DNA of 64,000 bases. Source: a phage. The stretch lies in the sequence record NC_100372.1; one strand, given 5' to 3'. Below are positions 22,123 to 36,087 of the stretch, piece after piece. The first letter of the stretch is position 1. Every line of letters begins with the position of its first letter. The notes below the pieces were generated by a model that saw nothing but the letters and a program-made list of their open reading frames with translations, did not search any database and was not told where the DNA came from. The position numbers and the translations under genes were made by a program.

Positions 22123-22362
22123 ATGTATAAGTCATTTTCAATTTACTCAAGACAGGCAAAACACTACACAGAGATTCTGATCACTCAGAAAAAATCTGTG
22201 GAAGGTGAGTGGGAATATCATCATAAAATGTTGCGTCCAGACTGGGTTTTTGATAGGCTTATTGCTATGATCCCTCTTGGAGAAGTATACCCTCTGACAG
22301 GTCATAGGGATGCTTGGGATTTAATTGACTATATAGATTCATTTAAGGAGCCTAGATTATGA
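22123..22362 (+). CDS. Hypothetical protein
   Basis: ATG 22123 after AGAGGGGGG. Confidence 0.55.
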   Translation: MYKSFSIYSRQAKHYTEILITQKKSVEGEWEYHHKMLRPDWVFDRLIAMIPLGEVYPLTGHRDAWDLIDYIDSFKEPRL

Positions 22363-22757
22363 AGATTGAGATTACTGAAGAAGGTAAGAAAGTCTCTGGT
22401 AACTATGCAACAGTTATCCGTGATGTAATGTTCGAAGTCACTAAGATTGGCACATCCAAGGTTGGTCAAACGGTGAGTGTGCAAGGTAATATCACCGCAG
22501 GAGAGAAGATATTCATCGTGATAAAAGGCCAGGATCCTGTAGAAGGGACAGTTGGACGTGGTGGATACTTGTGTATCTCTGAAGAGCCTCGCATGCTAGT
22601 TGCTGATAACTCCACAGGTAAAAAGCGAGTATGTAACACGGACGAGGTGATGATTATCTATCCAGTCAACCCGGATGATCCGGCAACATGGATTGTGGGA
22701 AATGAAATCTTCTCTTTAGAAGAGCTATCCTTCCCAGCTCCGCGATCTGTTCAGTAA
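22359..22757 (+). CDS. Hypothetical protein (MKIEIT... family-like N-terminus)
   Basis: ATGA overlap with the upstream gene. Confidence 0.6.
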   Translation: MKIEITEEGKKVSGNYATVIRDVMFEVTKIGTSKVGQTVSVQGNITAGEKIFIVIKGQDPVEGTVGRGGYLCISEEPRMLVADNSTGKKRVCNTDEVMIIYPVNPDDPATWIVGNEIFSLEELSFPAPRSVQ

Positions 22758-22796
22758 TAATTTATCTTGCCAGGGACGGCAAAAGCAGGAGGTAGC

Positions 22797-23030
22797 ATGA
22801 AAGTTAAATTTCTTACAGATTTAGGGTACCCTTCCTTGGTTGACTGCGTTGGTAAAATTGTGGAAGCAAAACGGCTATCTGCAAACGATAATGTTGTCAT
22901 GGTTAAGGGAAAAGATTTACTAGCTGCAGGTGCAGAGTCTGGCAGGATCTCTCCTGACTATACGTATTACCTGTCTTTAAGTAATCTACCAGAACGAGGC
23001 GGCAAAGGCCTTGAAGTTGTGGAGGAGTGA
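22797..23030 (+). CDS. Small acidic protein, KGxDLxAAGA paralogue family
   Basis: MKVKFL...VMVKGKDLLAAGAE...VVEE. AGGAGG SD. Confidence 0.65.
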   Translation: MKVKFLTDLGYPSLVDCVGKIVEAKRLSANDNVVMVKGKDLLAAGAESGRISPDYTYYLSLSNLPERGGKGLEVVEE

Positions 23031-23035
23031 CAGGT

Positions 23036-23572
23036 ATGCTTCTGATTAACTGGGAAGACCTCTATGGGGACAAAGACCCTGTTGCGTTTGTTGATCGTAG
23101 GTGGAGGTACACTGAAGAACAACTGGCTGCAAAAAATTTAACTGCAAAACGCAGAAAGATCATCCAGTGCAAGTACAAATACGCACAGTTTGCTGCAAAA
23201 GTGTCTCCACAAATCGAGAGTTTTGTACTTAAATTGTATGACGAGTACCTCAAATTCAAATTGGATTTTGTACAGGTATACCGTGCACAGGTACGTCCAG
23301 ATACCAACATCTGTAGATGGAAGGTTGTTTGTGATGGTAAAGATTTGCCGCTCAGTTTGACAATTGAGTGGCGTTGGGGGTATCATGAGTGCGGTTTGTA
23401 TGATATTTGGGATGTCATTGTAGATCCTGCTAAGTACCTGAACACAGAGGAGCTGGAATATATCAATAAGGTTATTCTAGATATGTTTTTCAGCTACACC
23501 CATGAAAACTCTGAGAAAGAACGGGATAATTTTCTTGACACCCTCGGCAACCACCTGCAGTGTACAATTTAA
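23036..23572 (+). CDS. Hypothetical protein
   Basis: ATG 23036, 10 nt after GGAGG (GTG 23027 is too close to the SD). Confidence 0.6.
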   Translation: MLLINWEDLYGDKDPVAFVDRRWRYTEEQLAAKNLTAKRRKIIQCKYKYAQFAAKVSPQIESFVLKLYDEYLKFKLDFVQVYRAQVRPDTNICRWKVVCDGKDLPLSLTIEWRWGYHECGLYDIWDVIVDPAKYLNTEELEYINKVILDMFFSYTHENSEKERDNFLDTLGNHLQCTI

Positions 23573-23590
23573 CCTACAAAGGAGGAGCCA

Positions 23591-23827
23591 ATGAGTATAG
23601 ATGCTGTGCTGATAGGTTACCTGGTAGTAGCTGTTATAACAGCAGTAATCTTGGCAGGTATATGCATCGTGTCTACACGAAGGGTGAAGTTTGATGATTT
23701 TATCACCATCATCACTGCTGCGCCCTTTTGGCCTGTTGTTATCTTCATCGTAATAATGTGCCTAGTTGATTACCACAAGAATATCCGTAAGGAGAAAAAG
23801 GAGAGTAGGGATGGATACCGCACCTAA
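23591..23827 (+). CDS. Membrane protein (2 TM)
   Basis: Two hydrophobic spans VLIGYLVVAVITAVILAGICIV and ITAAPFWPVVIFIVIMCLV. AAGGAGGAG SD. Confidence 0.65.
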   Translation: MSIDAVLIGYLVVAVITAVILAGICIVSTRRVKFDDFITIITAAPFWPVVIFIVIMCLVDYHKNIRKEKKESRDGYRT

Positions 23828-23963
23828 AACTGTTTATACTGTTCTTAAAGAGATTGCGTTCTACGCAGATCTTAGCCGGGCACCTTTATGGGAAAAGAAT
23901 ATGTATTTAAAATGGTGCGTGAAATTAGGGGGGCCTTCTAATGTTTCAAGCCATGTTTATTGA
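23811..23963 (+). CDS. Hypothetical protein (50 aa)
   Basis: ATG 23811 within track ORF 23766..23963. Confidence 0.4.
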   Translation: MDTAPKTVYTVLKEIAFYADLSRAPLWEKNMYLKWCVKLGGPSNVSSHVY

Positions 23964-24069
23964 AATGCTCTCTGGGGTATTACTGCTGGTAGCCATTTTG
24001 GGTGGCGCGGCACTGATGTATAATTATCTTGAAAAAGGGGACAGTAATGACAAAAAAATAAATCCTTAG
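23941..24069 (+). CDS. Single-TM mini-protein (42 aa) ending at an A7 run
   Basis: MFQAMFIEMLSGVLLLVAILGGAALMYNYLEKGDSNDKKINP. See the frameshift finding. Confidence 0.45.
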   Translation: MFQAMFIEMLSGVLLLVAILGGAALMYNYLEKGDSNDKKINP

Positions 24070-24235
24070 AACAGGCTGAAAACCTTCTCCACGAGCTGGT
24101 AAAGGAGTGGAAAGTTGAATACTCAGATTTTAATGCAAGAGAGGGGGAAGATTATTGGCCTACAGAGCGCTCAGAGGGAGAGTGGTATCAAGATTTCATA
24201 GAATGGCTATATCAGACGTGCGATGAGGGGTGACG

Positions 24236-24691
24236 ATGTTTGTTAAATATGTAAAAACGTGCCTCAACAACCTTGGTAGAGAGCATTGGTACACACTGCT
24301 TGAAAAAGGAGAAATTTTAACAAAATCTGGAAAGATAACTTTGATACCTTTGGACGATAAAGACCCGTCACTACTTGTCATAGATGATTACGTTACAGGT
24401 GTGTCGTACGAGGTATCTGTGGAGAGGTTAATACGCAGATCTGGAGGTCCTTATGACCGAAGAGAGTATGTTTTCGATTCCGTTACAGAGAAGGAAGATC
24501 CGTCCCTAATGTTTAGAATGGTAATCAGGGATATGAAATCATCTATAAATAGGATCGTAAAGGACATTAAGGAGCCTTTTAGGGTAAAAGTTAATAAGTT
24601 TTTTGATTCTAAGATCAACATACTCACCGTTGTGCTAGGCGTAATTCAACTTCTGTTAATTTTGCACTATTTTGAACTGTTGTTTAAGTAA
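24236..24691 (+). CDS. Hypothetical protein with C-terminal TM helix
   Basis: ATG 24236 after GAGGGG. C-terminal ILTVVLGVIQLLLILHYF. Confidence 0.6.
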   Translation: MFVKYVKTCLNNLGREHWYTLLEKGEILTKSGKITLIPLDDKDPSLLVIDDYVTGVSYEVSVERLIRRSGGPYDRREYVFDSVTEKEDPSLMFRMVIRDMKSSINRIVKDIKEPFRVKVNKFFDSKINILTVVLGVIQLLLILHYFELLFK

Positions 24692-24751
24692 TGTGCATTA
24701 TGGCACAAAGGATGTGCCATAATTAAATAAACTAAGAAAGAGGTAGAGAGA

Positions 24752-25099
24752 ATGTCAAAGATTAAATCGATATTAATGTGGGTGGCTGTTGTAGCTTTTG
24801 TAGGATACTGGACTTGGGAAACTGAATTAAAAGATATTGGGTATACCAGCCTTGAGAGCAAGGCGTGCATTGGCATAACCGATGCATTCAGGCAGAATGC
24901 TATGGATCACGAATGTGTCGATGCAGATATAGATGAGAAACTGTCTAAGGACAAAGATTTTTACCATGGTCATGCCTTGCTTGATAGTGGTGACACTGTG
25001 GAATTCTGGTCGTGGTTCCGTGAAGATGGGACAATAAAGACAGCAGTAAAGATTTCCAACAAAGAGTTGATGCTGTTGCAGCAGAAGGAGGTGCAATGA
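24752..25099 (+). CDS. Membrane-anchored/secreted hypothetical protein
   Basis: N-terminal hydrophobic ILMWVAVVAFVGYWTW. AGAGG SD. Confidence 0.6.
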   Translation: MSKIKSILMWVAVVAFVGYWTWETELKDIGYTSLESKACIGITDAFRQNAMDHECVDADIDEKLSKDKDFYHGHALLDSGDTVEFWSWFREDGTIKTAVKISNKELMLLQQKEVQ

Positions 25100-25383
25100 T
25101 CTGGATATCCTACGCTGATGGCACCATGCTGTATACTGCAGGTACTAGATATGAAGTTAAGGAGGACGATAAAAAATTTATCGTAAAAACATTTGACAAG
25201 GACGACAACCTTTTGCTAGAATTGACTTACAAGGTTGGGGATGTATCTAGCATCCAATTAGATTGCGGTCATAAAGATAACCCGCTCAAGAAACCTGGGG
25301 TAGGTAAAGCTTCAGAAGAACGCCTGTCTCGTATTGCAGAAAGCGTTTCTGCACAAAAATCTAAAAAGGGGACTAGAAAATGA
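25096..25383 (+). CDS. Hypothetical protein
   Basis: ATGA overlap with the upstream gene. Confidence 0.6.
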   Translation: MIWISYADGTMLYTAGTRYEVKEDDKKFIVKTFDKDDNLLLELTYKVGDVSSIQLDCGHKDNPLKKPGVGKASEERLSRIAESVSAQKSKKGTRK

Positions 25384-25574
25384 AAAACTTACATTTTAAC
25401 ACTTATTACTACAACACTTTGAATGATTTGTATTATATTGTTCGAAGTAAAAATCCTGAAACAGTCCTATTCTGCCGCGAACCTTTCAAAGGAGAGGAAG
25501 TGGAGTCTGAGATGAATGTTAGCCAGATTACCTCTTTGTTGCTCTCAGGTGCAATGGAAGAAGCAATATTCTAA
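25380..25574 (+). CDS. Hypothetical protein
   Basis: ATGA overlap with the upstream gene. Confidence 0.55.
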   Translation: MKNLHFNTYYYNTLNDLYYIVRSKNPETVLFCREPFKGEEVESEMNVSQITSLLLSGAMEEAIF

Positions 25575-25592
25575 ACCAGGCGGGAGGGTTTT

Positions 25593-25778
25593 ATGAAGCA
25601 CTATTGTCTGTCTGGTAGGATGGGGGTGGATTGTGATTGGGTTTTCTTAAAACTTGTCAGCGTTCGAGAGTCCATCCCAGAGGAAGAGCAAGAAAGTGAG
25701 CTGATGTCATGGATCAACTATTACGGCAACACTTTCCGGCATGTCAAAATGGAAGAGCTGCCAAACGAGGCTGATTGA
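25593..25778 (+). CDS. Hypothetical protein
   Basis: GGGAGGG SD upstream. Confidence 0.55.
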   Translation: MKHYCLSGRMGVDCDWVFLKLVSVRESIPEEEQESELMSWINYYGNTFRHVKMEELPNEAD

Positions 25779-25780
25779 TT

Positions 25781-25870
25781 ATGGTCGCATCAATATTAAC
25801 GTTTATGGGTGGCGTGGCATTCGGATTCATTCTTTGTCTGTTTATAGTTATCATGGCTATGCGAGGCTGA
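25781..25870 (+). CDS. Single-TM mini-peptide (29 aa)
   Basis: MVASILTFMGGVAFGFILCLFIVIMAMRG. Fills the gap between neighbouring genes exactly. Confidence 0.4.
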   Translation: MVASILTFMGGVAFGFILCLFIVIMAMRG

Positions 25871-25873
25871 ATT

Positions 25874-26158
25874 ATGAAACTGTTCGAGTGGTTTAAAAAG
25901 TTTAAATACCAGGCTGTTGCTGTATCGAAATGGACCGTCCGCTGGGTGGACGATGATGGAACACAAATTCCCGGTGATCAGGATACCGGATACTGGGTTA
26001 TGATGGAGAACGGATTTGGGAAAAGGAAGTTTAAATGTGTTGGTGCTCCTACTCTTTTAAATGTTAGAAGTGTGCCAGGGTACAGCACTATGGTTGTTTG
26101 GGAGCTATCCGGTGTTCCTCCTGCTAATGTGCAATATCTGCCAAACCCAGAAAAATAA
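25874..26158 (+). CDS. Hypothetical protein
   Basis: GAGG SD. Start as in the ORF track. Confidence 0.6.
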   Translation: MKLFEWFKKFKYQAVAVSKWTVRWVDDDGTQIPGDQDTGYWVMMENGFGKRKFKCVGAPTLLNVRSVPGYSTMVVWELSGVPPANVQYLPNPEK

Positions 26159-26170
26159 AAGGAGAAGATA

Positions 26171-26455
26171 ATGAGCAATGGTGTTAGCAATAGTGCTGCA
26201 GAGTTTAAAGTGATCTGTAAAGGAACTTATTGGATAGTGAAACAGAAAGTGTACCTATTCGGTTTCATACCGTTTTGGCAGAGATTTTGCTGGGGAGCTA
26301 ACGAGCTTAAGAGATACGCAACCAAGGCTATGGCACTTATTGGTATAGCTGAATACATTGCTGCCAGGGACAGAGAGGGTAAAACTTGTTACTACACTGC
26401 TGACGAGATTCGTAACAGTGTTTACGTTCCACAACCGCCCGATGGAGACCGCTGA
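26171..26455 (+). CDS. Hypothetical protein
   Basis: AAGGAG SD upstream. Confidence 0.6.
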   Translation: MSNGVSNSAAEFKVICKGTYWIVKQKVYLFGFIPFWQRFCWGANELKRYATKAMALIGIAEYIAARDREGKTCYYTADEIRNSVYVPQPPDGDR

Positions 26456-26679
26456 TGAAAGTTAAAGTTTTAGATTCAAGCTTCTATATTGGTCAGGAGC
26501 CCTTAGTGGGGAAAGTGTTTACCGCTATCCCTAACGAAGATTATCCTGACCTTCTAAAAATAAAAGGTGCAGATCTTATTGCCGCTGGTGCATCCCAGGA
26601 ATGCTTTGACAGTCAGTGGACCTACAACTTTGCCCTAGGAGAGGATGTGGAGATAGTGGAGGACGATCATGAAGGTTAA
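26455..26679 (+). CDS. Small acidic protein, KGxDLxAAGA family
   Basis: MKVKVLD...LKIKGADLIAAGASQE...VEIVEDD. Confidence 0.65.
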   Translation: MKVKVLDSSFYIGQEPLVGKVFTAIPNEDYPDLLKIKGADLIAAGASQECFDSQWTYNFALGEDVEIVEDDHEG

Positions 26680-26923
26680 AATTCTTGACTCTAACGTCTA
26701 CTTGGGACAATCCTTCCTGAAAGGAAAGGTAGTACCTGCTGTATACTTCGAAGGGTTGCCGTGGGACGATCCTGTGCGGCAAAATCACAGCCATGTAGGC
26801 CACAATGTGGTGTTCATCTTGGGATCAGACCTGATCGCGGCTGGTGCCCCGGAATATTATTTCGGAGAGGACTCGTATTATGCCTTTGGGGCAGGGTCAG
26901 ATGCAGATATTTTAGAGCTGTGA
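26669..26923 (+). CDS. Small acidic protein, KGxDLxAAGA family
   Basis: MKVKILD...ILGSDLIAAGAPE...ADILEL. Confidence 0.65.
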   Translation: MKVKILDSNVYLGQSFLKGKVVPAVYFEGLPWDDPVRQNHSHVGHNVVFILGSDLIAAGAPEYYFGEDSYYAFGAGSDADILEL

Positions 26924-26935
26924 TGGGGAACTGTT

Positions 26936-27334
26936 GTGAAAAATAAACTGTTCAAAGTTACAATGAAAATTCGCGGAGCTTGGAGCGTAAAGCAAGGGCG
27001 TATCCCCGAATTTGAGAAAGACTTCTACGTAGTCTCCACCTCGGAGGAGGCTGCATGCTGGCAGGCTGGCTATGCCTATGCAAGAACCTGGTACGAAGGA
27101 TACCAGACTGGAGGCTATGACGGAGAAATTGTCAGTAAGGGTGTGGAAGAAATTAATGTGTTGACAAGTGAAAAAGTTTTTGTTATAGTGCATCCAGATT
27201 CCAGAGTGAAGCATTACTGGAATGCCAGAACAAAAACCTGGACACCGTTTGCAGATTCTGCTACACCACTTTTAAACCAGAAAGCTCTTGACTCTGCCCC
27301 AAGCTATGGGGTTGTTGAAGAAAAGATAAGCTGA
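26936..27334 (+). CDS. Hypothetical protein, paralogue of 29141..29536
   Basis: Shares FVIVHPDSRVKHYWNARTKTWTPFADSATPL with FVMRHPHSNIAYYWDVLNNEWTPDLQKATVL. GTG start. Confidence 0.6.
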   Translation: MKNKLFKVTMKIRGAWSVKQGRIPEFEKDFYVVSTSEEAACWQAGYAYARTWYEGYQTGGYDGEIVSKGVEEINVLTSEKVFVIVHPDSRVKHYWNARTKTWTPFADSATPLLNQKALDSAPSYGVVEEKIS

Positions 27335-27351
27335 AATAGTGGGGTGCTTAC

Positions 27352-27642
27352 ATGATGGATTTAGTTTTGGACGCTGATAACACCGGATCGTTTAAAAAAG
27401 ATGGTGTAATAAGCATGGACCAATCCTGCGATGTCAAGATTGACTCAAAATGGACCTACAAGTTTGACGGTGAGATCTTCGCAAATGATGAGAAGGTCGT
27501 GGATGCTGTAGCCATTTTAAACGCTTTAGGGTATGACCCTGTGAACTCATTGATCAAGGATCCTGTTGAGTTTGCAGAGTATGTTCGTAAAATGGCAGAT
27601 CTTGCAGTAGATATTTTAAAAACTATCGACAACAAGTTGTAA
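27352..27642 (+). CDS. Hypothetical acidic protein
   Basis: Start as in the ORF track. Confidence 0.6.
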   Translation: MMDLVLDADNTGSFKKDGVISMDQSCDVKIDSKWTYKFDGEIFANDEKVVDAVAILNALGYDPVNSLIKDPVEFAEYVRKMADLAVDILKTIDNKL

Positions 27643-27648
27643 AAACTG

Positions 27649-27677
27649 TTGACACAACGCTTCAGATTTAGTATCAT
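27649..27677 (+). promoter_or_regulatory. sigma70-type promoter upstream of the HPF homologue
   Basis: TTGACA(27649-27654), 17 nt spacer, TATCAT(27672-27677). A 5' leader hairpin AAGAGGG-GTTGGT-CCCTCTT at about 27687-27709. Confidence 0.7.
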
Positions 27678-27723
27678 TGTTTTCAAAGAGGGGTTGGTCC
27701 CTCTTCTTTAAAAGGAACACATT

Positions 27724-28041
27724 ATGCAAATTGAAATCACTGGCAACGTAGAGATCACTGAAGGTATGGTGTCTTTCATTTCCAACAAAATGTCCAAGCT
27801 GGAGCGTTTGCACCCCTCTGCCAACTATGCACGTGTGAGTGTAAAAGTTGAAAATGATCACCAGGAAGTTATGGCTTTCATTTTTGACACTTCTGGAAAA
27901 GAAGTTATCGCCAAAGCTAAAGGTAGTGATGCTTACGAGGCAACTGACCGTATGGTAGATGTTGCAGCACGCCAGTTGGCTAAGTGTGGTGGAAAGAAAG
28001 GTAAGGGAAAAGGCAAAGTAAAGATTGACTTTTTAGATTAA
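27724..28041 (+). CDS. hpf: Ribosome hibernation promoting factor / RaiA (YfiA) family homologue
   Basis: MQIEITGN-VEITEGMVSFISNKMSKLERL...VKVEN...AKAKGSDAYEATDRMVDVAARQLAK aligns along its length with E. coli HPF as I recall it (MQLNITGNNVEITEALREFVTAKFAKLEQY...LKVEK...ASAEGQDMYAAIDGLIDKLARQLTK). It has an extra Gly/Lys-rich tail. Confidence 0.85.
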   Translation: MQIEITGNVEITEGMVSFISNKMSKLERLHPSANYARVSVKVENDHQEVMAFIFDTSGKEVIAKAKGSDAYEATDRMVDVAARQLAKCGGKKGKGKGKVKIDFLD

Positions 28042-28050
28042 GGTGCTACA

Positions 28051-28152
28051 ATGGGCACGATTAAGAAATTAATCCCAAATGTAGAGATTGCATGCTTTGA
28101 AATTATGTTTGCAATCGCAGTTGTAGTTAATGTGTTAGGTTACGGCTATTAA
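28051..28152 (+). CDS. Single-TM mini-peptide (33 aa)
   Basis: MGTIKKLIPNVEIACFEIMFAIAVVVNVLGYGY. AAGGTG upstream. Confidence 0.4.
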   Translation: MGTIKKLIPNVEIACFEIMFAIAVVVNVLGYGY

Positions 28153-28178
28153 TATCAAATAATTGAGGAGACCTCTAA

Positions 28179-28448
28179 ATGAAAATTAAATTATTCCAAA
28201 CTGAGCTGGCAGACAAAAACTGTGGACTGGTTGAAGGCATGATCGTTGAAGCACAACCAGTTGACTACATGAAGGTGGTTCGTGATGCCCTGGGTGAAGG
28301 TTTTGATCTGATGGAGCCAGCTCTGCGAGAAGATGTCATCGAAATGGCTAAAAAGCACACACCGGAAGGTTTGGTAGTGTTTGTTGCTCCAGGTAATGGA
28401 GAGGAGTTGATTGTAACTCCGGATGTGTATGAGGTTGTAGAAGAGTAA
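28179..28448 (+). CDS. Small acidic protein, ...YEVVEE paralogue family
   Basis: MKIKLF...GLVVFVAPGNGEELIVTPDVYEVVEE. GAGGAG SD. Confidence 0.65.
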   Translation: MKIKLFQTELADKNCGLVEGMIVEAQPVDYMKVVRDALGEGFDLMEPALREDVIEMAKKHTPEGLVVFVAPGNGEELIVTPDVYEVVEE

Positions 28449-28540
28449 TCCTGCTTGGGTTGGAATACTTTCCTCGACAAGAAAGGTTTATAATTATTTG
28501 TGGGAAAGGAATCCCCATCTCTTACCAGAGGTGATACTAT

Positions 28541-28804
28541 ATGATTGTTTATTTTAAAACTTCAGGTGGATACCCTGATTCTCAAAGCTTGATTGGAAAA
28601 ACGTGCACAGCATACTCACCTCTTGATGAGGAGGTAAGTGGTATCCTACGAGATATGTATCGGATTGATCCACAAGAAGCTTTTGATCAAAACCTTGTAT
28701 TTGTCAAGGGATCAGACATAAAGTCTTTGGGGGCATTCCCTGAAGCAGATGATGATGCTGTTTATTCGTTTATGACACCTTTTGAAGCTATGGTTGTGGG
28801 GTAA
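28541..28804 (+). CDS. Small acidic protein, KGxDLxAAGA family (divergent)
   Basis: LVFVKGSDIKSLGAFPEADDDAVYSF. Confidence 0.6.
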   Translation: MIVYFKTSGGYPDSQSLIGKTCTAYSPLDEEVSGILRDMYRIDPQEAFDQNLVFVKGSDIKSLGAFPEADDDAVYSFMTPFEAMVVG

Positions 28805-28808
28805 GAAT

Positions 28809-29141
28809 ATGAAAGTACGCTTTATTGGTGAAACAATTCCTGTGCATCTCCGGTCTCCTGAAGACTCTGCAGATCTTGCATCTCAAAAGGCGAGAGGGTA
28901 TGATAAGAAAGTGATCTCAAGCAATGTAGAGCTTGAGGCCACCAGTCTGCCTGACCCAGCTGCATTCTTCAATCATTATGGCTACTATTTTAGCAATCTG
29001 ATGAATATTGGTGAGCTTGTGTTTATTAGTGGTGGAGAGATAGTTAGCAAGCTTGGTGGAGATCCGGATATCTTTCATGAAACCTGTCCTTTTGCATTTG
29101 TGGTGGGTTCAGATGTGGAAGTTATTGAGGAGGTTCGGTAA
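28809..29141 (+). CDS. Small acidic protein, KGxD family (divergent)
   Basis: MKVRFIG...LVFISGGEIVSKLGGDPD...VEVIEEVR. ATG 28809 inside track ORF 28782. Confidence 0.6.
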   Translation: MKVRFIGETIPVHLRSPEDSADLASQKARGYDKKVISSNVELEATSLPDPAAFFNHYGYYFSNLMNIGELVFISGGEIVSKLGGDPDIFHETCPFAFVVGSDVEVIEEVR

Positions 29142-29536
29142 TGGTAAGTCTATACCGTGTTGAGTATAGCTCGGATACTGTATACAACGTAAGAAGCAAA
29201 GATCGCAGTGATAGAGTGCAAGAAATGTATGTTCTTGCAGATAGTCCGTTATCTGCAGCGTTCAAGGCAGGAGCTCTTGCATCTCGTTGGAAATTTGAGG
29301 GTGGATCTTTCTATGAAGAAACCCTCGAAGATTCTGTTGTTATTTCTTCTGTAGAGGTTTCAACCGACTACGAAGGGAAAAAGTTCGTAATGCGGCACCC
29401 ACACAGCAACATTGCGTACTACTGGGATGTTCTGAACAATGAGTGGACCCCTGATCTTCAGAAGGCCACTGTTCTAACCCCATTCCTGGCAGATAAGTTC
29501 CCACCAGAAGGTAATTTATCTGCACTGTTTCAGTAA
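29141..29536 (+). CDS. Hypothetical protein, paralogue of 26936..27334
   Basis: See 26936..27334. ATG overlaps the upstream TAA. Confidence 0.6.
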   Translation: MVSLYRVEYSSDTVYNVRSKDRSDRVQEMYVLADSPLSAAFKAGALASRWKFEGGSFYEETLEDSVVISSVEVSTDYEGKKFVMRHPHSNIAYYWDVLNNEWTPDLQKATVLTPFLADKFPPEGNLSALFQ

Positions 29537-29554
29537 TTTTATGCCACACAGGTG

Positions 29555-29583
29555 TTGACAACACCAACCCTGTGTGCAATAAT
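29555..29583 (+). promoter_or_regulatory. sigma70-type promoter embedded in nested palindromes
   Basis: TTGACA(29555-29560), 17 nt spacer, AATAAT(29578-29583). GGTGTTGACAACACC palindrome sits inside CACACAGG...CCTGTGTG. Confidence 0.6.
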
Positions 29584-29615
29584 ACCTTCATCTTAACAAG
29601 ATAGGAGACCGACTG

Positions 29616-29873
29616 ATGAAGATTAAATTGAAAAACCTTGAAACGGCAGAGATTCAGGAAGGTGTTGATTTCCGTTCTAAAGATGGAGACATCCTAGAGG
29701 CGAATGTCCCGACATATAAGTTGATTAAAGGTTTTGGCAACGTTCCGGAGGAGGATATTACAGACATTCTTATGATGTTGATCCTTGACGGGACTGTGTT
29801 TGTAGGTGAAGGTGAGAACGCTATTGCAATCCCGAGCCATTTTTATGAAGTAGTTGACGAAGAGGTGCTGTAA
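29616..29873 (+). CDS. Small acidic protein, ...YEVVDEE family
   Basis: MKIKLKNL...GTVFVGEGENAIAIPSHFYEVVDEEVL. Confidence 0.65.
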   Translation: MKIKLKNLETAEIQEGVDFRSKDGDILEANVPTYKLIKGFGNVPEEDITDILMMLILDGTVFVGEGENAIAIPSHFYEVVDEEVL

Positions 29874-30224
29874 ATGAAAGTAGAGATCACAGGTTTTGAT
29901 ATGAATGCGGTTCCGGAAGATATTTTAGCTAAACTCCCGGAAGGTTTTAGTAACGGTGTTGTGGTGGATGCTGTCCCTCCTACCAAAGACATTCTGCTGC
30001 AGTATGGTGTAGCAGAGGAGGATGTCGATAAAGTTCTTACAATGATGGCAATCGACCGTGTTGTCGTTGTTAAAGGTCTTGAAGGTTTTGATGACGATCC
30101 TCTGATTATTCGTGGTGATGACTATCGCATCATCGACAACGAAGGCCAAGAGTTCTACGAACCTTCTGCTGAAGATGTTCTTAACTTACTACTGGAAGCA
30201 GGCACCGAAGAGGAGGAAGAATAA
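29874..30224 (+). CDS. Small acidic protein, same family
   Basis: MKVEITGF...RVVVVKGLEGFDDDPLIIRGDDYRIIDNEG. Poly-E tail. Confidence 0.65.
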   Translation: MKVEITGFDMNAVPEDILAKLPEGFSNGVVVDAVPPTKDILLQYGVAEEDVDKVLTMMAIDRVVVVKGLEGFDDDPLIIRGDDYRIIDNEGQEFYEPSAEDVLNLLLEAGTEEEEE

Positions 30225-30553
30225 TGAAAATTGATCCGTTACTGAAGGCTCGTGCAGAAAAAGCATACACTATCAAGCTGACCTCTCTGGTCCCTACTTG
30301 TCATCCGGATGTAGGTTGGCCTGAAGGCCTGGTAGAGGGGACTGTAACAGCTGCATACCTTCCTAACATCAAATACCTCATGGAGATCTTGGAGATGGAT
30401 GAGGAAACTGCAGAACAGTTCCAGTTAGACATGAAACAAAGTGGGACTCTGGTTATTCACGGGTGGTATAATACTAAAGATGCAGAAGATCCTCTGGTAA
30501 CTTCTAATCTGGCATATGAAATCTTAGGACCTTTGAACTTGGGGGAAGATTAA
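30224..30553 (+). CDS. Small acidic protein, same family (divergent)
   Basis: GTLVIHGWYNTKDAEDPLVTSNLAYEILGP. Confidence 0.6.
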   Translation: MKIDPLLKARAEKAYTIKLTSLVPTCHPDVGWPEGLVEGTVTAAYLPNIKYLMEILEMDEETAEQFQLDMKQSGTLVIHGWYNTKDAEDPLVTSNLAYEILGPLNLGED

Positions 30554-30840
30554 TGAAAGATTTGGTCAAGATCAAGATTAAAGATACCAATGGAGAACTC
30601 AGCCATTTTGGAATTAACGATGGTGACGAGCTGGTCGCCCACCTGCCTACCAAGGAAGTTGTAAGCAAGGCTGTTGCCGGAGAAGAAGATGCAATGCAGG
30701 CTGCTGGTGTGGATGAAAACTATGTAGCCATGTGCATGTGCCGAGATCAGGTTGTTCTGTATAAAGCGTATCGACCAAATGGAGCACCTGAGTGGCTTGT
30801 TTTCCGACCCGAAGGGTATGAAATTTTAGAGACACTATGA
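30553..30840 (+). CDS. Small acidic protein, same family (divergent)
   Basis: VKIKIKD...QVVLYKAYRPNGAPEWLVFRPEGYEILETL. Confidence 0.6.
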   Translation: MKDLVKIKIKDTNGELSHFGINDGDELVAHLPTKEVVSKAVAGEEDAMQAAGVDENYVAMCMCRDQVVLYKAYRPNGAPEWLVFRPEGYEILETL

Positions 30841-30920
30841 TAAATCTTGCCAAGGTTGCAATGGCACTGCTAATTATTTGCTGGATAGTGACCTTGGCAC
30901 TATGTCTTGTATTTCATTAA
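30837..30920 (+). CDS. Single-TM mini-peptide (27 aa)
   Basis: MINLAKVAMALLIICWIVTLALCLVFH. ATGA overlap with the upstream gene. Confidence 0.4.
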   Translation: MINLAKVAMALLIICWIVTLALCLVFH

Positions 30921-30929
30921 GGGGGCTGT

Positions 30930-31193
30930 ATGAACATCTTGGTGTGGGTTGTGGCAGTGGCGTTTGTTGCGTGCCTCTCTTGTTGGGTTGCTGTGAGGAT
31001 TTCTATAGCCACTCTTCGGAAATTAGGGTTCTCAGAGTGGGATATTAATATCCTTTCTTTTCGCAATGAGACAATCTCAGCCGCCCTGCTGTGCAAGAGG
31101 TTTAAGTGGGAACCTTGTGAGGTCATGAACTATCTAAGAACAGGGGATATTCCTGAGAGATTTAAAAAAGTTCTTGACGGCAAAGACAAATGA
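30930..31193 (+). CDS. Membrane-anchored hypothetical protein
   Basis: N-terminal TM ILVWVVAVAFVACLSCWVAV. AAGGGGG SD. Confidence 0.6.
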   Translation: MNILVWVVAVAFVACLSCWVAVRISIATLRKLGFSEWDINILSFRNETISAALLCKRFKWEPCEVMNYLRTGDIPERFKKVLDGKDK

Positions 31194-31202
31194 TAGTATA
31201 GT
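31174..31202 (+). promoter_or_regulatory. sigma70-type promoter
   Basis: TTGACG(31174-31179), 17 nt spacer, TATAGT(31197-31202). Confidence 0.6.
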
Positions 31203-31221
31203 GACTAACAAGAGGTGAGGA

Positions 31222-31362
31222 ATGACTGATTTTACTGAAGCTTTAATGATGGCCTTATCTGTTTTAGCGCTATCGGTGTGTTTTGGAGCGTTATTCACAT
31301 CTCTGGTTAGAGTTTTACATACCATATTATCACCCAAGGAGCACAGTAATGACGAAGATTGA
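31222..31362 (+). CDS. Single-TM mini-protein (46 aa) ending in UGA-C
   Basis: MTDFTEALMMALSVLALSVCFGALFTSLVRVLHTILSPKEHSNDED. GAGGTGAGG SD. Confidence 0.45.
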   Translation: MTDFTEALMMALSVLALSVCFGALFTSLVRVLHTILSPKEHSNDED

Positions 31363-31443
31363 CTTAAATGCTGGCGACCATTTGTTGTCAAATGCATCGG
31401 GGATTATCTTGGATTCACAATCGGCAACACTTACGAGGCGGTA

Positions 31444-31599
31444 GTGGCGAAGGTTTATCATGATAAAGTCCTCAGCCTTGTGTTTGACTGTGATGATGAC
31501 GGAGATGACCGTTACGTCTGTGAGGTGCTGGCACGTGACGATAGTGAAGACCAGAAATTCCTGGTTATTGAACTGAACGGTATTTTTGTAGAACGTTAA
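31444..31599 (+). CDS. Small acidic protein (51 aa from GTG; the open frame extends upstream to 31363 without a start)
   Basis: GTG 31444 five nt after GAGG. The frame is continuous with the 31222 ORF across its TGA. Confidence 0.35.
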   Translation: MAKVYHDKVLSLVFDCDDDGDDRYVCEVLARDDSEDQKFLVIELNGIFVER

Positions 31600-31627
31600 T
31601 TTAAAACAATATAAGGAGACTCTTACT

Positions 31628-31933
31628 ATGGCTAAATCTAAAGTTGAACTGTTCACCTCTCTGCCTTCTGACACTGCAGAGCGTGATCGCCTCCGTAAAA
31701 CAATTGAAGAGCTGGTGGAACTTCAGCTTCAGATTAAAGATCTGAAAGACGCTATCAAGGATATTATTCTTGTCGAGAAACAGGATCATCTGTATTCTCC
31801 TAAGTTTATCAAGTCATTGGTGGCTACCGAATTCGATATCCGCTACGAAGCTGAAAAACGTCGAGCTAAAATCGAAGAAGAGGTTGAGCACATGTCTGAA
31901 GCAGACATTCTGTTCAAACGCTCTGCAGAATAA
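31628..31933 (+). CDS. Hypothetical coiled-coil protein
   Basis: AAGGAG SD. Heptad-like RKTIEELVELQLQIKDLKDAIKD. Confidence 0.65.
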   Translation: MAKSKVELFTSLPSDTAERDRLRKTIEELVELQLQIKDLKDAIKDIILVEKQDHLYSPKFIKSLVATEFDIRYEAEKRRAKIEEEVEHMSEADILFKRSAE

Positions 31934-31941
31934 CAACGAGG

Positions 31942-31965
31942 AGGGGTCTTGGCCCCTATTTTTAC
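31942..31965 (+). terminator. Rho-independent terminator
   Basis: AGGGG-TCTTGG-CCCCT followed by ATTTTTAC. Confidence 0.7.
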
Positions 31966-31986
31966 TATCTATGGAGAAGATCAGAA

Positions 31987-32313
31987 ATGCTAATGCCGAT
32001 TACTGTAAAAGAGCTAAATGAACGTGATGCAGGGGGCCTGTGGCCTGCACGGAAAATACGCTGCGTTTATATGAAAGAGAATCTTGAGCACCTTGATCAG
32101 CAGATTGCGGTTGGTGATATTTTCGAAGTTCTCTATTCTAATCGTCGCAACTGGGAAACCATTCAACCTTCCGGTTTTGTTCTTGCCAGACTTGATACTG
32201 GAGAAGTGATTATCCCCGGGCTGGATATTGTCTTCGAAATTATCCAGGAGTGGGATCCTGATAAGATTAAATATGAAGAGTTATTCGGTGAAGGTATTAT
32301 CAAGCCTGTGTGA
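31987..32313 (+). CDS. Hypothetical protein
   Basis: Start as in the ORF track. Confidence 0.6.
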   Translation: MLMPITVKELNERDAGGLWPARKIRCVYMKENLEHLDQQIAVGDIFEVLYSNRRNWETIQPSGFVLARLDTGEVIIPGLDIVFEIIQEWDPDKIKYEELFGEGIIKPV

Positions 32314-32321
32314 GGTGGATT

Positions 32322-32621
32322 ATGTCTACAACGACAGCTAAATACTCCTATATGCCAGCAACCTCAGCAGAAATAGACTTCAGTTTCGATGTGTTTCCAT
32401 TGTTTGAGATAGTCCTGGCATACCCAACAATTCTATCTACTCCTGAATCACTTGTACCTGTTAAGTTGCAGAACGCTATGCATTCCATGCACTACAACAA
32501 TAAATGTAGGCACAGATGGTGTCAAGACGAGGAAAAAGATCTGGAGAGTTTGAAAGATTTTGACAGTCACCTTTTGACACCTTTTAGTTACTCAAACCTA
32601 GACAAACCCTCATGGGTATAG
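32322..32621 (+). CDS. Hypothetical protein
   Basis: ATG 32322 (the track start 32310 is GTG). Confidence 0.55.
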   Translation: MSTTTAKYSYMPATSAEIDFSFDVFPLFEIVLAYPTILSTPESLVPVKLQNAMHSMHYNNKCRHRWCQDEEKDLESLKDFDSHLLTPFSYSNLDKPSWV

Positions 32622-32645
32622 CAAAATATCAAATTTAAGGCACCT

Positions 32646-32672
32646 AGGACGCTCTGTGGCGTCCTTTTCTTT
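32646..32672 (+). terminator. Rho-independent terminator
   Basis: AGGACGC-TCTGTG-GCGTCCT followed by TTTCTTT. Confidence 0.85.
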
Positions 32673-32834
32673 ATCTGGTGCACGATTCCATACCTTAGAC
32701 AATTAATCTCCTTACAGAGCGTTTAAAGGCATCCTACAAACAACTCTCTATTTCGAGCGTAGCGAGAACGCACGCCCGTTTTGACCCAAATCACCATACG
32801 CTCGGATTTTAACCAAACCCTCGCGGTGTTTCTG

Positions 32835-32863
32835 TTGACACATTACCGCTCCTGTGATAATAT
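32835..32863 (+). promoter_or_regulatory. sigma70-type promoter
   Basis: TTGACA(32835-32840), 17 nt spacer, TAATAT(32858-32863). Confidence 0.65.
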
Positions 32864-32895
32864 CCACACATCGTTTGAAGAATATGGGATACACA

Positions 32896-32976
32896 ATGAA
32901 AACATTGTCAGAGGTTTTAGTGGTGATCCTGATGATCATTGCGTCCATAGCGGCTGTTGCCGGAATATGCTTATAG
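32896..32976 (+). CDS. Single-TM mini-peptide (26 aa)
   Basis: MKTLSEVLVVILMIIASIAAVAGICL. First ATG after the 32835 promoter. Weak SD. Confidence 0.35.
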   Translation: MKTLSEVLVVILMIIASIAAVAGICL

Positions 32977-33051
32977 CATCGACACGTTCCAGCCATATGT
33001 CGATAAAGTCTTATTTTTTAAACATGTTGCCGGAATACTCACGGGTGGAAC

Positions 33052-33237
33052 ATGACCAACACACATGCATCTACAGAAACATCTGAAGGAGTGACAGAGG
33101 AAAACTTCAATTCTGAGGATTCTCTATCTCCGTCCCAGGTGGACCCTGAGGCTGATGACCTAACGTGGGAGGATATCATAGCCATCTGGTTCTCTATTAT
33201 GCCTGAGCACGAAGAGTTCAGAGGTGGGAGACTATGA
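33052..33237 (+). CDS. Hypothetical highly acidic protein
   Basis: GGGTGGA upstream. D/E/S-rich. Confidence 0.5.
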   Translation: MTNTHASTETSEGVTEENFNSEDSLSPSQVDPEADDLTWEDIIAIWFSIMPEHEEFRGGRL

Positions 33238-33357
33238 AGCACCGAGCCCACATAAGTTTATCATGCTAAAGCATGGCCTGAAGGGGCAAACGTGCATAAT
33301 TCCATCGTATTGGAACGTATAAACCCCGTTCACACTCTCATTTCCAGAGGAGATTTC

Positions 33358-33573
33358 ATGAAAATAGAAATATTTGGTGGGGCTGACAACACTCGTGGCC
33401 TGATTTACCTTGAATTCGATGAATCTTACCTGCCAGAGGTGTTAAATATAGATGCTGTTGCGGAAGCCCTTGATGTAGACCCTAAAGATCTCTACTCCCG
33501 TGCTGAGATTGATGGTTGGGAAGAGACTCTGAACATTGATTTCAGTGAAGTAGTAGATGAACCTTTGGACTGA
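33358..33573 (+). CDS. Small acidic protein (MKIEIFGG..., family-like)
   Basis: ATG 33358 after AGAGGAG. Last gene of the + strand arm. Confidence 0.6.
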   Translation: MKIEIFGGADNTRGLIYLEFDESYLPEVLNIDAVAEALDVDPKDLYSRAEIDGWEETLNIDFSEVVDEPLD

Positions 33574-33713
33574 CACACAAGTCTGCTTTGCAGGTTTAGC
33601 TGCTCAGCTAAGGTTCTGGAGTCACCTATAACATCTTCCAACTAAATTTCCTACCAACACAGTTACTTACCCACCACACATGACTGTTTGCTTGTTTAGT
33701 GAGCAGTCATCCC

Positions 33714-33741
33714 TTGACATTCTTGCCTATCTTGATAAAAT
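33714..33741 (+). promoter_or_regulatory. sigma70-type promoter firing into ORF-free DNA
   Basis: TTGACA(33714-33719), 16 nt spacer, TAAAAT(33736-33741). No ORF with an SD downstream. Confidence 0.5.
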
Positions 33742-33936
33742 TAAGTTCTTCTCTTTTCTTTTACCGAGTAATTCGGGTTTTCTGTTCTCTTCGGTTTGAA
33801 GGGGTATGGAGATACACCTGAGTGAACAGGGTGAACAACCGAACCTTTAGCTATGGCATTAGCATGGCGAAGCGGACGGGTGACGAAAGAGGGGCCGGAG
33901 GACACCAGTCACTGCCATATAGTATATGGGTGATAA

Positions 33937-34706: not shown

Positions 34707-34740
34707 GAGAATACCTATCATTGTGAGAATGGTTATCATT
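34707..34740. promoter_or_regulatory. Two adjacent Fur-box-like sites (GAGAATNNNTATCATT)
   Basis: GAGAATACCTATCATT (34707-34722) and GAGAATGGTTATCATT (34725-34740). The second matches 13/19 of GATAATGATAATCATTATC. Confidence 0.4.
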
Positions 34741-36069: not shown

Positions 36070-36087
36070 GATAATTCAGTTAAGAAA

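What the first reader, a model, noticed from the sequence alone, without database searches (positions are those of the whole stretch)
22359..33573. Massive expansion of small acidic paralogues (at least 14 genes, at least 2 sequence families) including a three-gene segmental duplication
Family 1 has the motif (V/I)KG(K/A/S)D(L/I)xAAGA followed by an aromatic-rich stretch and an acidic end. Members are 22797, 26455, 26669, 28541 and 28809.

Family 2 has an MK(I/V)(K/E)(L/I) start, a G.(V)V(F/V)(V)xG core and a C-terminal (Y/F)E(V/I)(V/L)(E/D)E. Members are 28179, 29616, 29874, 30224, 30553 and 33358.

The blocks 26455-27334 and 28541-29536 have the same order: family-1 gene, family-1 gene, then a 132-aa gene. 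The 132-aa genes are clear paralogues (F(V)(I/M)xHP.S...YW.....WTP....AT.L). This is a diverged tandem segmental duplication.

Such rapidly diversifying arrays of tiny acidic proteins in early regions are typical of host-takeover or anti-defence arsenals. No member has a known function that I can recognise.
Basis: seen in the sequence. Interest (0 to 1): 0.55.

Follow-up and report, generated by a model that had tools for sequence, protein, structure and literature searches.

The report
Paralogous small-protein gene array in rV5-like phage
A 137-kb E. coli phage of the rV5 group carries twelve small genes belonging to three old, well-conserved paralogue families (two of them predicted SH3-like mini-barrels) of unknown function; the repeats are real, but they are stable accessory genes rather than a fast-evolving anti-defence arsenal.

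Summary
The window is a Vequintavirus (rV5-like E. coli myovirus, 98.9% identical to phage ECP26). Profile-profile tests with decoys confirm family 1 (5 genes), family 2 (5 of the 6 proposed; 33358 fails) and the 132-aa pair: 12 genes in 3 families, not at least 14.

F1 is not an orphan. It belongs to phrog_5009, a roughly 70-aa domain of unknown function found in T4-like, T1-like, T7-like and lambdoid enterobacterial phages. F2 and the 132-aa family are almost genus-restricted.

AlphaFold models (pLDDT 91 and 89) make both F1 and F2 SH3-like small beta-barrels. Sequence does not prove that F1 and F2 are related.

The F1-F1-132aa order occurring twice is non-random (P about 1e-4). But the F1 tree does not pair positional counterparts, and no DNA similarity remains between the blocks. 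The duplications are therefore ancient.

Gene order is identical across more than 110 genomes and dN/dS is 0.02-0.20, so the genes are not rapidly diversifying. A natural deletion of block 1 (BASEL phage Bas59) is viable and changes nothing on 11 immunity systems. Function remains unknown. Small protein-binding host modulators made from sigma70 promoters is the best guess.

The parts
22797..23030 (+). F1 member (77 aa; rV5 gp122 ortholog), isolated copy
   Evidence: phrog_5009 E 2.5e-36; hhalign 110 to 26455; deep F1 profile 116; dN/dS 0.10
26455..26679 (+). F1 member (74 aa; rV5 gp135), first gene of block 1; the minimal form of the domain
26669..26923 (+). F1 member (84 aa; rV5 gp136), second gene of block 1; overlaps the previous gene by 11 nt
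   Evidence: phrog_5009 E 1e-31; hhalign 115 to 26455; dN/dS 0.17
26936..27334 (+). F3 member (132 aa; rV5 gp137), third gene of block 1
   Evidence: phrog_7379 E 2e-73; BLASTP 8e-10 and hhalign 46 to 29141; dN/dS 0.06
28179..28448 (+). F2 member (89 aa; rV5 gp141). Wrongly labelled 'sigma 54 modulation factor' in several GenBank records
   Evidence: Leave-one-out hhalign 35.3, E 6.5e-6, 79 columns; no Pfam S30AE hit; dN/dS 0.04
28541..28804 (+). F1 member (87 aa; rV5 gp142), first gene of block 2; has an insert between strands 2 and 3
   Evidence: phrog_13920, plus a weak phrog_5009 hit at 1.6e-4; leave-one-out 47.1; deep profile 77.5; dN/dS 0.11
28809..29141 (+). F1 member (110 aa; rV5 gp143), second gene of block 2. 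Only the C-terminal ~40 residues align; the N-terminal part is divergent or expanded
   Evidence: phrog_13661; leave-one-out 41.0, E 7e-7, 38 columns; deep profile 50.0; dN/dS 0.06
29141..29536 (+). F3 member (131 aa; rV5 gp144), third gene of block 2
   Evidence: phrog_7379 E 4e-66; dN/dS 0.02
29616..29873 (+). F2 member (85 aa; rV5 gp145), first of a run of four F2 genes
29874..30224 (+). F2 member (116 aa; rV5 gp146) with an acidic C-terminal tail
   Evidence: Leave-one-out 35.3; pI 4.05; dN/dS 0.20
30224..30553 (+). F2 member (109 aa; rV5 gp147 = ORF152)
   Evidence: Leave-one-out 36.9. rV5 Table S3 lists it as 'structural protein (MS evidence)' on the basis of two weak peptides, both present in the window protein; dN/dS 0.08
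30553..30840 (+). F2 member (95 aa; split in rV5 as gp148/gp149 by a 2-nt indel)
   Evidence: Leave-one-out 38.6; dN/dS 0.06 and the rV5 indel
33358..33573 (+). Proposed sixth F2 member (71 aa; rV5 gp158). Membership is NOT supported
   Evidence: Only residues 1-11 align, score 18.6; rank 13 of 65 in global mode; has its own phrog_12108
27649..27677 (+). Predicted sigma70 promoter (TTGACA-17-TATCAT) ahead of the HPF gene and the 28179 / block 2 genes
   Evidence: Scan; the same site is annotated P144 in rV5 NC_011041
29555..29583 (+). Predicted sigma70 promoter (TTGACA-17-AATAAT, extended -10) ahead of the F2 run
   Evidence: Scan; annotated P150 in rV5
23433..27248 (.). Interval missing in the viable phage EduardKellenberger (Bas59). 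It removes 14 genes, including F1 26455, F1 26669 and most of F3 26936
   Evidence: blastn junction with microhomology AGAT(C/T)CTGCTA and an in-frame fusion

Best explanation
The region is the distal, accessory part of the long rightward transcription unit of a Vequintavirus (rV5 genes 82-163). It holds three families of old paralogues.

- F1: five genes, members of the widespread phage domain phrog_5009.
- F2: five genes, almost restricted to this genus.
- F3: two genes of 131-132 aa.

F1 and F2 proteins are each a single, acidic, SH3-like five-stranded mini-barrel. Size differences come from inserts between strands 2 and 3 and from terminal tails.

The families arose by tandem and block duplication before the genus radiated. 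This includes duplication of a unit holding F1 and F3, and a run of four F2 genes. Every copy has since been kept by purifying selection, which implies each has a distinct, useful but non-essential job.

Most likely mechanism (inference, not shown): they are small stand-alone protein-binding modules. They would be transcribed by unmodified host RNA polymerase from sigma70-type promoters, alongside the phage HPF/RaiA ribosome-hibernation homologue. Each would bind a different host or phage protein through its variable loops to tune host physiology during infection.

Shown: paralogy, fold prediction, conservation, dispensability of block 1. Inferred: time of expression, protein-binding activity, host targets.
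For: Identity of the genome: (98.9% to ECP26; 122 Vequintavirus records).

Families.

Narrow distribution of F2 and F3 and wide distribution of F1.

Non-random gene order: P = 1e-4 for F1-F1-F3 occurring twice, and P = 0.003 for a run of four F2 genes.

Purifying selection: dN/dS 0.02-0.20.

Fixed gene order in all inspected genomes.

Dispensability.

Predicted sigma70 promoters at 27649 and 29555, independently annotated in rV5.

HPF neighbour: Pfam PF02482, E 1e-12.

Expression of at least one F2 protein: two peptides in the rV5 MS data.

Context of F1 relatives: always among small accessory ORFs, in the lambdoid nin region, the RB49 hyperplastic region and a Proteus podophage.
Against: There is no direct evidence of function, binding partner or expression timing. 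I found no Vequintavirus transcriptome.

Acidic SH3-like barrels could equally be structural or assembly factors, and one F2 orthologue was labelled a virion protein in rV5.

Loss of block 1 gave no phenotype in the BASEL panel. This shows only that any role is subtle, redundant or conditional.
Confidence: 0.55

Rival explanations
1. Anti-defence arsenal. Each paralogue would inhibit a different bacterial immunity system, and the array would grow and diversify in an arms race.
For: The proteins are small, acidic and accessory, sit in a multi-copy array and have no housekeeping homology. Block 1 is dispensable on K-12. F1 relatives sit in accessory/moron regions of other phages. One genome carries a 52%-identical allele of 29616.
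Against: dN/dS is 0.02-0.20, and copy number and order are fixed across more than 110 genomes, which is not an arms-race signature.

Vequintavirinae are 'exceptionally susceptible' to RM systems (PMC8594841).

The predicted fold is not that of the DNA-mimic anti-restriction proteins.

Caveats: only 11 systems were tested, and the paralogues may be redundant.
Confidence: 0.2
2. Virion-associated or morphogenetic proteins. Some members would be packaged, and possibly injected, or would act as assembly chaperones.
For: rV5 Table S3 marks ORF152 (the 30224 orthologue, F2) and two other genes of the array (ORF133, ORF137) as 'structural protein (MS evidence)'. SH3-like barrels are common in phage structural proteins (general knowledge).
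Against: The evidence for ORF152 is two short, low-scoring peptides (XCorr about 1.8-1.9). The other eleven members were not detected. The genes lie in the replication-side transcription unit, far from the morphogenesis module. Block 1 is dispensable.
Confidence: 0.1
3. Nucleic-acid-binding regulators (KOW- or Sm-like barrels) that act on RNA or ribosomes together with the neighbouring HPF homologue.
Confidence: 0.08
4. The similarities are compositional or start-motif artefacts, and the genes are unrelated ORFans.
For: This is true for 33358. It is also true of the F1-F2 link: the score drops to 11.7 once the first six residues are removed, and 7 of 300 decoys reach that value. The MK[IV]x[ILVF] start also occurs on the unrelated HPF gene.
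Against: Leave-one-out profiles retrieve every F1 member and five F2 members at rank 1, far above the decoys, over nearly full length. Both F3 genes fall in one PHROG. The AF2 models built from these alignments are confident.
Confidence: 0.03

Closest known systems
phrog_5009 (with phrog_13367, phrog_8603 and others): phage protein family of unknown function
   Same: F1 members 22797, 26455 and 26669 match full length at E 1e-31 to 1e-38. All 78 remote representatives found with the F1 profile also hit phrog_5009. They share the consensus MKVKLL..GGY.G...VGKVV.A...I.G.DLI.AGA...Y.F...E.EVVEE.
   Different: Elsewhere the domain is usually present in one or two copies per genome, or as a tandem-repeat protein. 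Here there are five separate genes. Two of them (28541, 28809) are so divergent that PHROGs files them in their own families (phrog_13920, phrog_13661).
SH3-like small beta-barrel fold (SH3, KOW, PsaE, Tudor-type domains)
   Different: There is no sequence similarity to any Pfam SH3 or KOW family. F1 has a conserved helix (G-x-D-L-I-x-A-G-A) after strand 3. F2 has a helical insert of about 25 residues between strands 2 and 3. No proline-peptide- or RNA-binding residues can be inferred.
Hyperplastic / accessory regions of large virulent phages (e.g. T4-type plasticity regions, the SPO1 host-takeover module): runs of small, non-essential early ORFs (own knowledge)
   Same: A tight same-strand run of 40-180-aa ORFs with host-type promoters. 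They have no homologues of known function and are dispensable in the laboratory. It lies next to nucleotide-metabolism and replication genes. An F1 relative sits in exactly such a region of RB49.
   Different: Here the gene content is remarkably fixed across the genus rather than plastic. A third of the roughly 35 genes belong to just three paralogue families.
Multigene families of large eukaryotic DNA viruses (poxvirus ankyrin/Bcl-2-like families, ASFV MGFs) and gene 'accordion' amplification (own knowledge)
   Same: Tandem arrays of diverged paralogues built on one small binding scaffold, in a non-essential genome region.
   Different: There is no evidence here of ongoing copy-number change or positive selection, and no host targets are known. 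This is an analogy only.

Membership tests
phrog_5009 phage domain family (F1) | Significant full-length match to the family HMM | tested here: met
   22797 E 2.5e-36, 26455 E 2.1e-38, 26669 E 1.1e-31, 28541 E 1.6e-4. 28809 has no direct PHROG hit, but scores 50.0 (E 7e-9) over its C-terminal 41 columns against the deep F1 profile.
phrog_5009 phage domain family (F1) | Conserved core motif G-x-[DE]-L-I-x-x-G-A followed by Y-x-F | tested here: met
   Seen in alignments A1, A4 and A6. G38 and G45 are invariant, and D40 and Y57 are at least 90% conserved. The motif is degenerate in 28541 (GSDIKSLGA) and 28809 (GGEIVSKLGG).
F2 (Vequintavirus-specific family defined here) | Retrieved by a profile built from the other members, above all decoys and over most of its length | tested here: met
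   28179, 29616, 29874, 30224 and 30553 score 33-38.6 over 72-79 columns, against a next best of 20.4 or less.
F2 (Vequintavirus-specific family defined here) | Same criterion applied to 33358 | tested here: not met
   Score 18.6 over 11 columns. There is no gain with -mact 0.05, and it ranks 13 of 65 in global mode.
F1 + F2 as one superfamily | Significant profile-profile similarity beyond the start motif | tested here: not met
   Score 22.6 over the N-terminal 29 columns only, about equal to the best reversed decoy (22.0). After trimming six residues the score is 11.7, and 7 of 300 shuffled decoys reach it.
F1 + F2 as one superfamily | Same predicted fold and strand order | tested here: met
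   Both AF2 models have five strands in the same order. Both give SH3-domain top hits, and many PDB chains are shared between the two lists. A direct superposition of the two models was not possible with these tools.
SH3-like small beta-barrel fold | Five-stranded barrel with structural matches to SH3, KOW or PsaE domains | tested here: met
Canonical SH3 / KOW sequence families (Pfam) | Match to a Pfam SH3 or KOW model | tested here: not met
   No Pfam hit at E up to 1 for any member.
Three-gene tandem segmental duplication | Same order of homologous genes in both blocks | tested here: met
   Both 26455-27334 and 28541-29536 have the order F1, F1, F3. Permutation P = 9.9e-5.
Three-gene tandem segmental duplication | Positional counterparts are each other's closest paralogues | tested here: not met
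   26455 is closest to 26669 and 22797 (hhalign 115 and 110), not to 28541 (32.9). The NJ tree groups 28541 with 28809 (67% bootstrap). The sequences are short, so resolution is weak. A two-gene (F1-F3) duplication followed by independent F1 duplications fits equally well.
Three-gene tandem segmental duplication | Residual nucleotide similarity between the blocks | tested here: not met
   Best blastn E between the blocks is 0.37, so the duplication is ancient.
Rapidly diversifying arms-race gene array | Elevated dN/dS and presence/absence or copy-number variation among close relatives | tested here: not met
   dN/dS is 0.02-0.20. The array is identical in all inspected genomes, and at least 115 of 122 records are colinear. 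The only exceptions seen are one deletion (Bas59), one divergent allele (phiWec189) and one frameshift (rV5 gp148/149).
Anti-restriction DNA mimics (Ocr/ArdA type) | Protection of the phage from type I RM systems | tested here: not met
   The literature reports Vequintavirinae as exceptionally RM-sensitive (PMC8594841). Bas58 and Bas59 have the same EOP on EcoKI and EcoCFT_I with or without block 1. The predicted fold is a beta-barrel, not an elongated helical mimic.
Early (host-RNAP-transcribed) genes | Transcription in the first minutes of infection | not testable with these tools
   Only predicted sigma70 promoters are available. No Vequintavirus transcriptome was found.

The most novel reading that the evidence does not exclude
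F1 and F2 together form one diversified superfamily of ten stand-alone SH3-like binder proteins. In effect this would be a phage-encoded 'binder library', in which one scaffold has been duplicated and re-looped to hit ten different host proteins or immunity components. It would be a bacteriophage counterpart of the multigene families of large eukaryotic DNA viruses. The phrog_5009 domain would be the widespread ancestral module across enterobacterial phages.
Probability: 0.2. Interest if true: 0.6.

Novelty: new member of a known kind. Interest (0 to 1): 0.3.

Why it matters
rV5-like phages are among the most frequently isolated E. coli phages and are used in biocontrol and therapy cocktails. 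Yet about a third of their genes, including this whole array, have no assigned role.

This work gives a concrete, testable map of about 4 kb of unknown sequence:
- Twelve genes reduce to three families.
- Two of those families share a simple, confidently predicted mini-barrel scaffold.
- One family is a domain shared with T4-like, T1-like, T7-like and lambdoid phages.

The map prioritises which genes to delete together, since paralogue redundancy must be removed to see a phenotype. It also corrects misannotations. If the proteins turn out to be host-protein binders, phrog_5009 would become a new widespread class of phage effector domain. If not, the finding remains an ordinary example of old gene duplication in a phage accessory region.

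Tried and rejected
- Pfam, PHROGs and PDB sequence searches gave no functional annotation for any member.
- 33358 as an F2 member was rejected.
- 22359 (132 aa, start MKIEI) and all other array genes as members of F1, F2 or F3 were rejected, with scores of 18 or less.
- F1-F2 sequence homology is not demonstrable. The signal is confined to the start motif and a 'G.VV.A' strand.
- F3 showed no relation to F1 or F2 (scores 10.9 and 14.7).
- DNA-level repeats between the two blocks: none found.
- I looked for a named T4 orthologue of F1. The T4-like hits are all Krischvirus (RB49 group) hypothetical proteins.
- Neighbourhoods of remote F1 representatives were on contigs of 0.5-2.3 kb and were uninformative.
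- Literature searches for Vequintavirus paralogues, early genes or transcriptomes found nothing on these genes. The rV5 genome paper does not mention the paralogy.
- The UniProt identity of the BFVD hit A0A5B9MT80 (CM1, 83 aa) could not be confirmed. The only 83-aa CDS in this region of CM1 is the gp152 orthologue.

Full report
**What the window is.** The 11.2-kb region is 98.9% identical to Escherichia phage vB_EcoM-ECP26 and 90-95% identical to more than 100 other Vequintavirus (rV5-like) genomes. All genes from about 20.1 to 33.6 kb lie on the + strand. GC skew flips at about 34 kb. Upstream are a ClpP-like protease and a DNA methyltransferase. An HPF/RaiA ribosome-hibernation homologue (27724-28041; Pfam PF02482, E 1e-12) sits inside the array. 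In rV5 nomenclature the region is ORF126-163, the distal end of the transcription unit 'genes 82-163', which begins with the nucleotide-metabolism and replication genes (PMC3606486).

**Checking the families.** I defined 35 genes in the array and compared them all against all.

- Plain BLASTP already links 26455/26669 (4e-14), 26936/29141 (8e-10), 26455/22797 (1e-7), 29616/29874 (3e-4) and 26669/28809 (3.5e-4).
- I then collected homologues from a 5.8-billion-protein database using the F1 and F2 alignments. Every hit was an orthologue of one of the window's own genes.
- I built one profile per gene and ran hhalign on all 595 pairs, with reversed-sequence decoys. The best decoy scored 21.8.
- F1 pairs scored 24-115 and the 132-aa pair scored 46.
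- F2 pairs scored only 17-26, although with near full-length alignments.
- A leave-one-out test resolved F2. A profile of the other members retrieved each of 28179, 29616, 29874, 30224 and 30553 at rank 1 of 65. Scores were 33-39, E was 1e-5 to 2e-6 and alignments covered 72-79 columns, while the next best hit scored 20.4 or less.
- 33358 aligned only over its first 11 residues, with score 18.6. More permissive or global alignment added nothing.
- No other gene of the array joins any family.

The result is F1 = 5 genes, F2 = 5 genes and F3 = 2 genes. PHROGs had already put three F1 genes in phrog_5009 and both F3 genes in phrog_7379. It keeps 28541, 28809 and every F2 gene in separate families. 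Pfam has nothing for any of them.

**How wide the families are.** An exhaustive HMMER search of 1.84 billion representatives with the F1 profile found 89 proteins at E of 1e-3 or better.

- Most are 63-90 aa and match end to end.
- A few carry two or three tandem copies, and one is fused to DUF3310.
- All 78 that I scanned hit phrog_5009.
- tblastn with a generic member finds the domain in RB49-like T4-type phages, T1-like phages (Tls, Henu7), a Proteus podophage, large Klebsiella and Providencia phages, and lambdoid phages. It always sits among small hypothetical ORFs.

F1 is therefore a five-fold expansion of a widespread phage domain of unknown function. F2 and F3 are different. Word-indexed searches find only Vequintavirus orthologues. 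The single exception is a structural and sequence relative of F2 in Vibrio phage Vc1 (Foldseek E 4e-5, TM 0.71, 31% identity).

**Structure.** AlphaFold2 on the family alignments gave confident models.

- F1 26455: pLDDT 91.3, pTM 0.79. Strands at 2-5, 21-23, 33-37, 56-61 and 65-69, with a helix at 38-43 that carries the conserved G-x-D-L-I-A-A-G-A motif.
- F2 29616: pLDDT 89.3, pTM 0.77. Strands at 2-5, 26-30, 61-63, 70-72 and 77-80, with helices at 34-38 and 45-58 inserted between strands 2 and 3.

The fold is too common to imply a function.

By sequence, the F1-F2 link is not established. The profile-profile score is 22.6 over the N-terminal 29 columns only. That beats 300 column-shuffled decoys (maximum 15.6) but equals the best reversed-sequence decoy (22.0). 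It collapses to 11.7 once the six-residue start motif is trimmed, and 7 of 300 decoys reach that value. The start motif M[KQ][IV]x[ILVF] also occurs on HPF and other unrelated ORFs. A common origin of F1 and F2 is therefore plausible (same array, same predicted fold, similar termini) but unproven.

**The segmental duplication.** The label string of the array is --1-----------113--21132222--------.

- F1-F1-F3 occurring twice has permutation P = 1e-4.
- F1-F3 occurring twice has P = 0.017.
- A run of four F2 genes has P = 0.003.

Local duplication clearly built the array. However, 26455 is far closer to 26669 and 22797 than to its positional counterpart 28541. A neighbour-joining tree groups 28541 with 28809 at 67% bootstrap. 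There is no nucleotide similarity between the blocks. A three-gene block duplication with very unequal rates remains possible. A two-gene (F1-F3) duplication followed by separate F1 duplications fits equally well. Either way the events are ancient.

**Evolutionary dynamics.** I compared the window with six genomes that are 91-95% identical. Nei-Gojobori dN/dS values were:

- F1: 0.06-0.17
- F2: 0.04-0.20
- F3: 0.02-0.06
- Comparators: ClpP 0.04, HPF 0.05, methyltransferase 0.007

Gene order is identical in ECP26, VB-EcoM-WM, rV5, naswa, A6-1, JEP1, CM1 and HeinrichReichert. At least 115 of 122 records cover 80% or more of the region. These are conserved, functional genes and not a rapidly diversifying set. 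I saw three exceptions:

- A 3.8-kb deletion in EduardKellenberger (window 23433-27248). It is flanked by a roughly 13-nt microhomology and fuses 23036 in frame to the tail of 26936.
- A 52%-identical allele of 29616 in phiWec189.
- A 2-nt indel that splits the 30553 orthologue in rV5.

**Function.** Nothing is known directly.

- Predicted sigma70 promoters lie in the intergenic gaps before HPF (27649-27677) and before the F2 run (29555-29583). The rV5 curators annotated the same two sites. I found no transcriptome.
- The rV5 supplementary table marks ORF152 (the 30224 orthologue) as 'structural protein (MS evidence)'. This rests on two short, low-scoring peptides, both present in the window protein. 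It shows at least that the protein is made.
- The BASEL study states that Vequintavirinae are exceptionally susceptible to restriction-modification.
- Its raw data allow a natural experiment. Bas59 (EduardKellenberger) lacks block 1 and Bas58 (HeinrichReichert) is intact and of the same species. [quoted passage not shown] Bas59 is, if anything, less sensitive to EcoPI. The six-strain lysis pattern is the same.
- Block 1 is therefore dispensable and not needed against these systems. Redundancy with 22797 and block 2 cannot be excluded.

**Verdict.** The interpretation overreaches. The array is old, stable and under purifying selection, and an anti-defence role has no support so far.

The most likely reading is a set of small stand-alone SH3-like protein-binding modules that tune host physiology. 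They would be expressed from host-type promoters together with the phage HPF homologue. This part is inference (confidence in the overall statement is about 0.55; the evolutionary and structural parts are much firmer than the functional part).

In kind, this is an ordinary feature of large virulent phages, namely paralogous small accessory genes, so interest is modest. The useful new points are:

- the profile-level unification of F2;
- the SH3-like fold prediction for F1 and F2;
- the link of F1 to a widespread phage domain;
- the natural deletion data.

Noticed in passing
window 31349-31599 (frameshift near 31380): The 83-aa gene conserved in ECP26, rV5 and naswa (rV5 gp152: MTKIDLNAGDHVVVKCIGDY...) is frameshifted in this window by a 1-nt deletion (GACCATTTGTTG versus GACCATGTTGTTG). 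This is either a pseudogene or a sequencing error. Its CM1 orthologue is probably the second-best BFVD structural match of the F2 model (E 0.017, TM 0.52), so it may be another small barrel.
   Followed up: partly
window 24047-24232 (A-run at ~24053-24059): The 61-aa acidic ORF (ECP26_00154 / rV5 ORF132) is disrupted in the window by one extra A in a homopolymer (A7 versus A6 in ECP26). This is a likely homopolymer sequencing error or a phase-variable frameshift.
   Followed up: partly
window 28179-28448: This F2 gene is annotated 'sigma 54 modulation factor' in ECP26, naswa, A6-1, VB-EcoM-WM and other records. It has no S30AE/HPF Pfam match. The label seems to have spread from the true HPF gene 138 nt upstream.
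   Followed up: yes
window 23433-27248; L004 6001-6015: The viable BASEL phage EduardKellenberger (Bas59) carries a 3.8-kb deletion between imperfect 13-nt microhomologies. It removes 14 genes and creates an in-frame fusion of the 23036 orthologue with the last ~26 residues of the 26936 orthologue.
   Followed up: yes
window 33600-36100: A stretch of about 2.5 kb has no convincing ORFs at the point where transcription direction and GC skew switch. rV5 labels it 'non-coding'. It is dense in short direct and inverted repeats, e.g. TGACACAAT(G/A)TGACA at 35039 and 35082, GTTTACG..ACTGTTTAC at 35129 and 35159, and a perfect 18-nt inverted repeat at 35241/35375. It may be a replication origin or regulatory region.
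   Followed up: partly
window 27724-28041: A phage-encoded ribosome hibernation factor (HPF/RaiA, Pfam PF02482, E 1e-12) with its own predicted sigma70 promoter sits in the middle of the paralogue array. It is conserved across the genus with dN/dS 0.05.
   Followed up: partly
phage collection records MG0656xx: Eighteen GenBank records named 'Campylobacter phage' with host C. jejuni are about 92% identical to this E. coli Vequintavirus over the whole region. They are probably mislabelled or contaminant genomes.
   Followed up: no
L005 4902-5129 (phage mEp515); proteins P0030 and P0031: Single-copy F1 relatives of 75 aa (43-51% identical to 22797) occur in lambdoid phages, between NinG/RusA and the lysis genes. 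They also occur in many E. coli chromosomes (a cluster of 309 sequences), which suggests exchange between virulent and temperate phages.
   Followed up: partly
window 24236-24691 and 25593-25778: The rV5 orthologues ORF133 (151 aa, one transmembrane segment) and ORF137 (61 aa) are listed as virion proteins on MS evidence, although they lie in this non-morphogenetic region. ORF129 (window 23591-23827) was called a putative holin with two transmembrane segments.
   Followed up: no
LC739538 (phiWec189) 119434-119679: One Vequintavirus carries a 29616 allele that is only 52% identical, while all others are 86-100% identical. This is a local allelic replacement inside an otherwise conserved array.
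   Followed up: no
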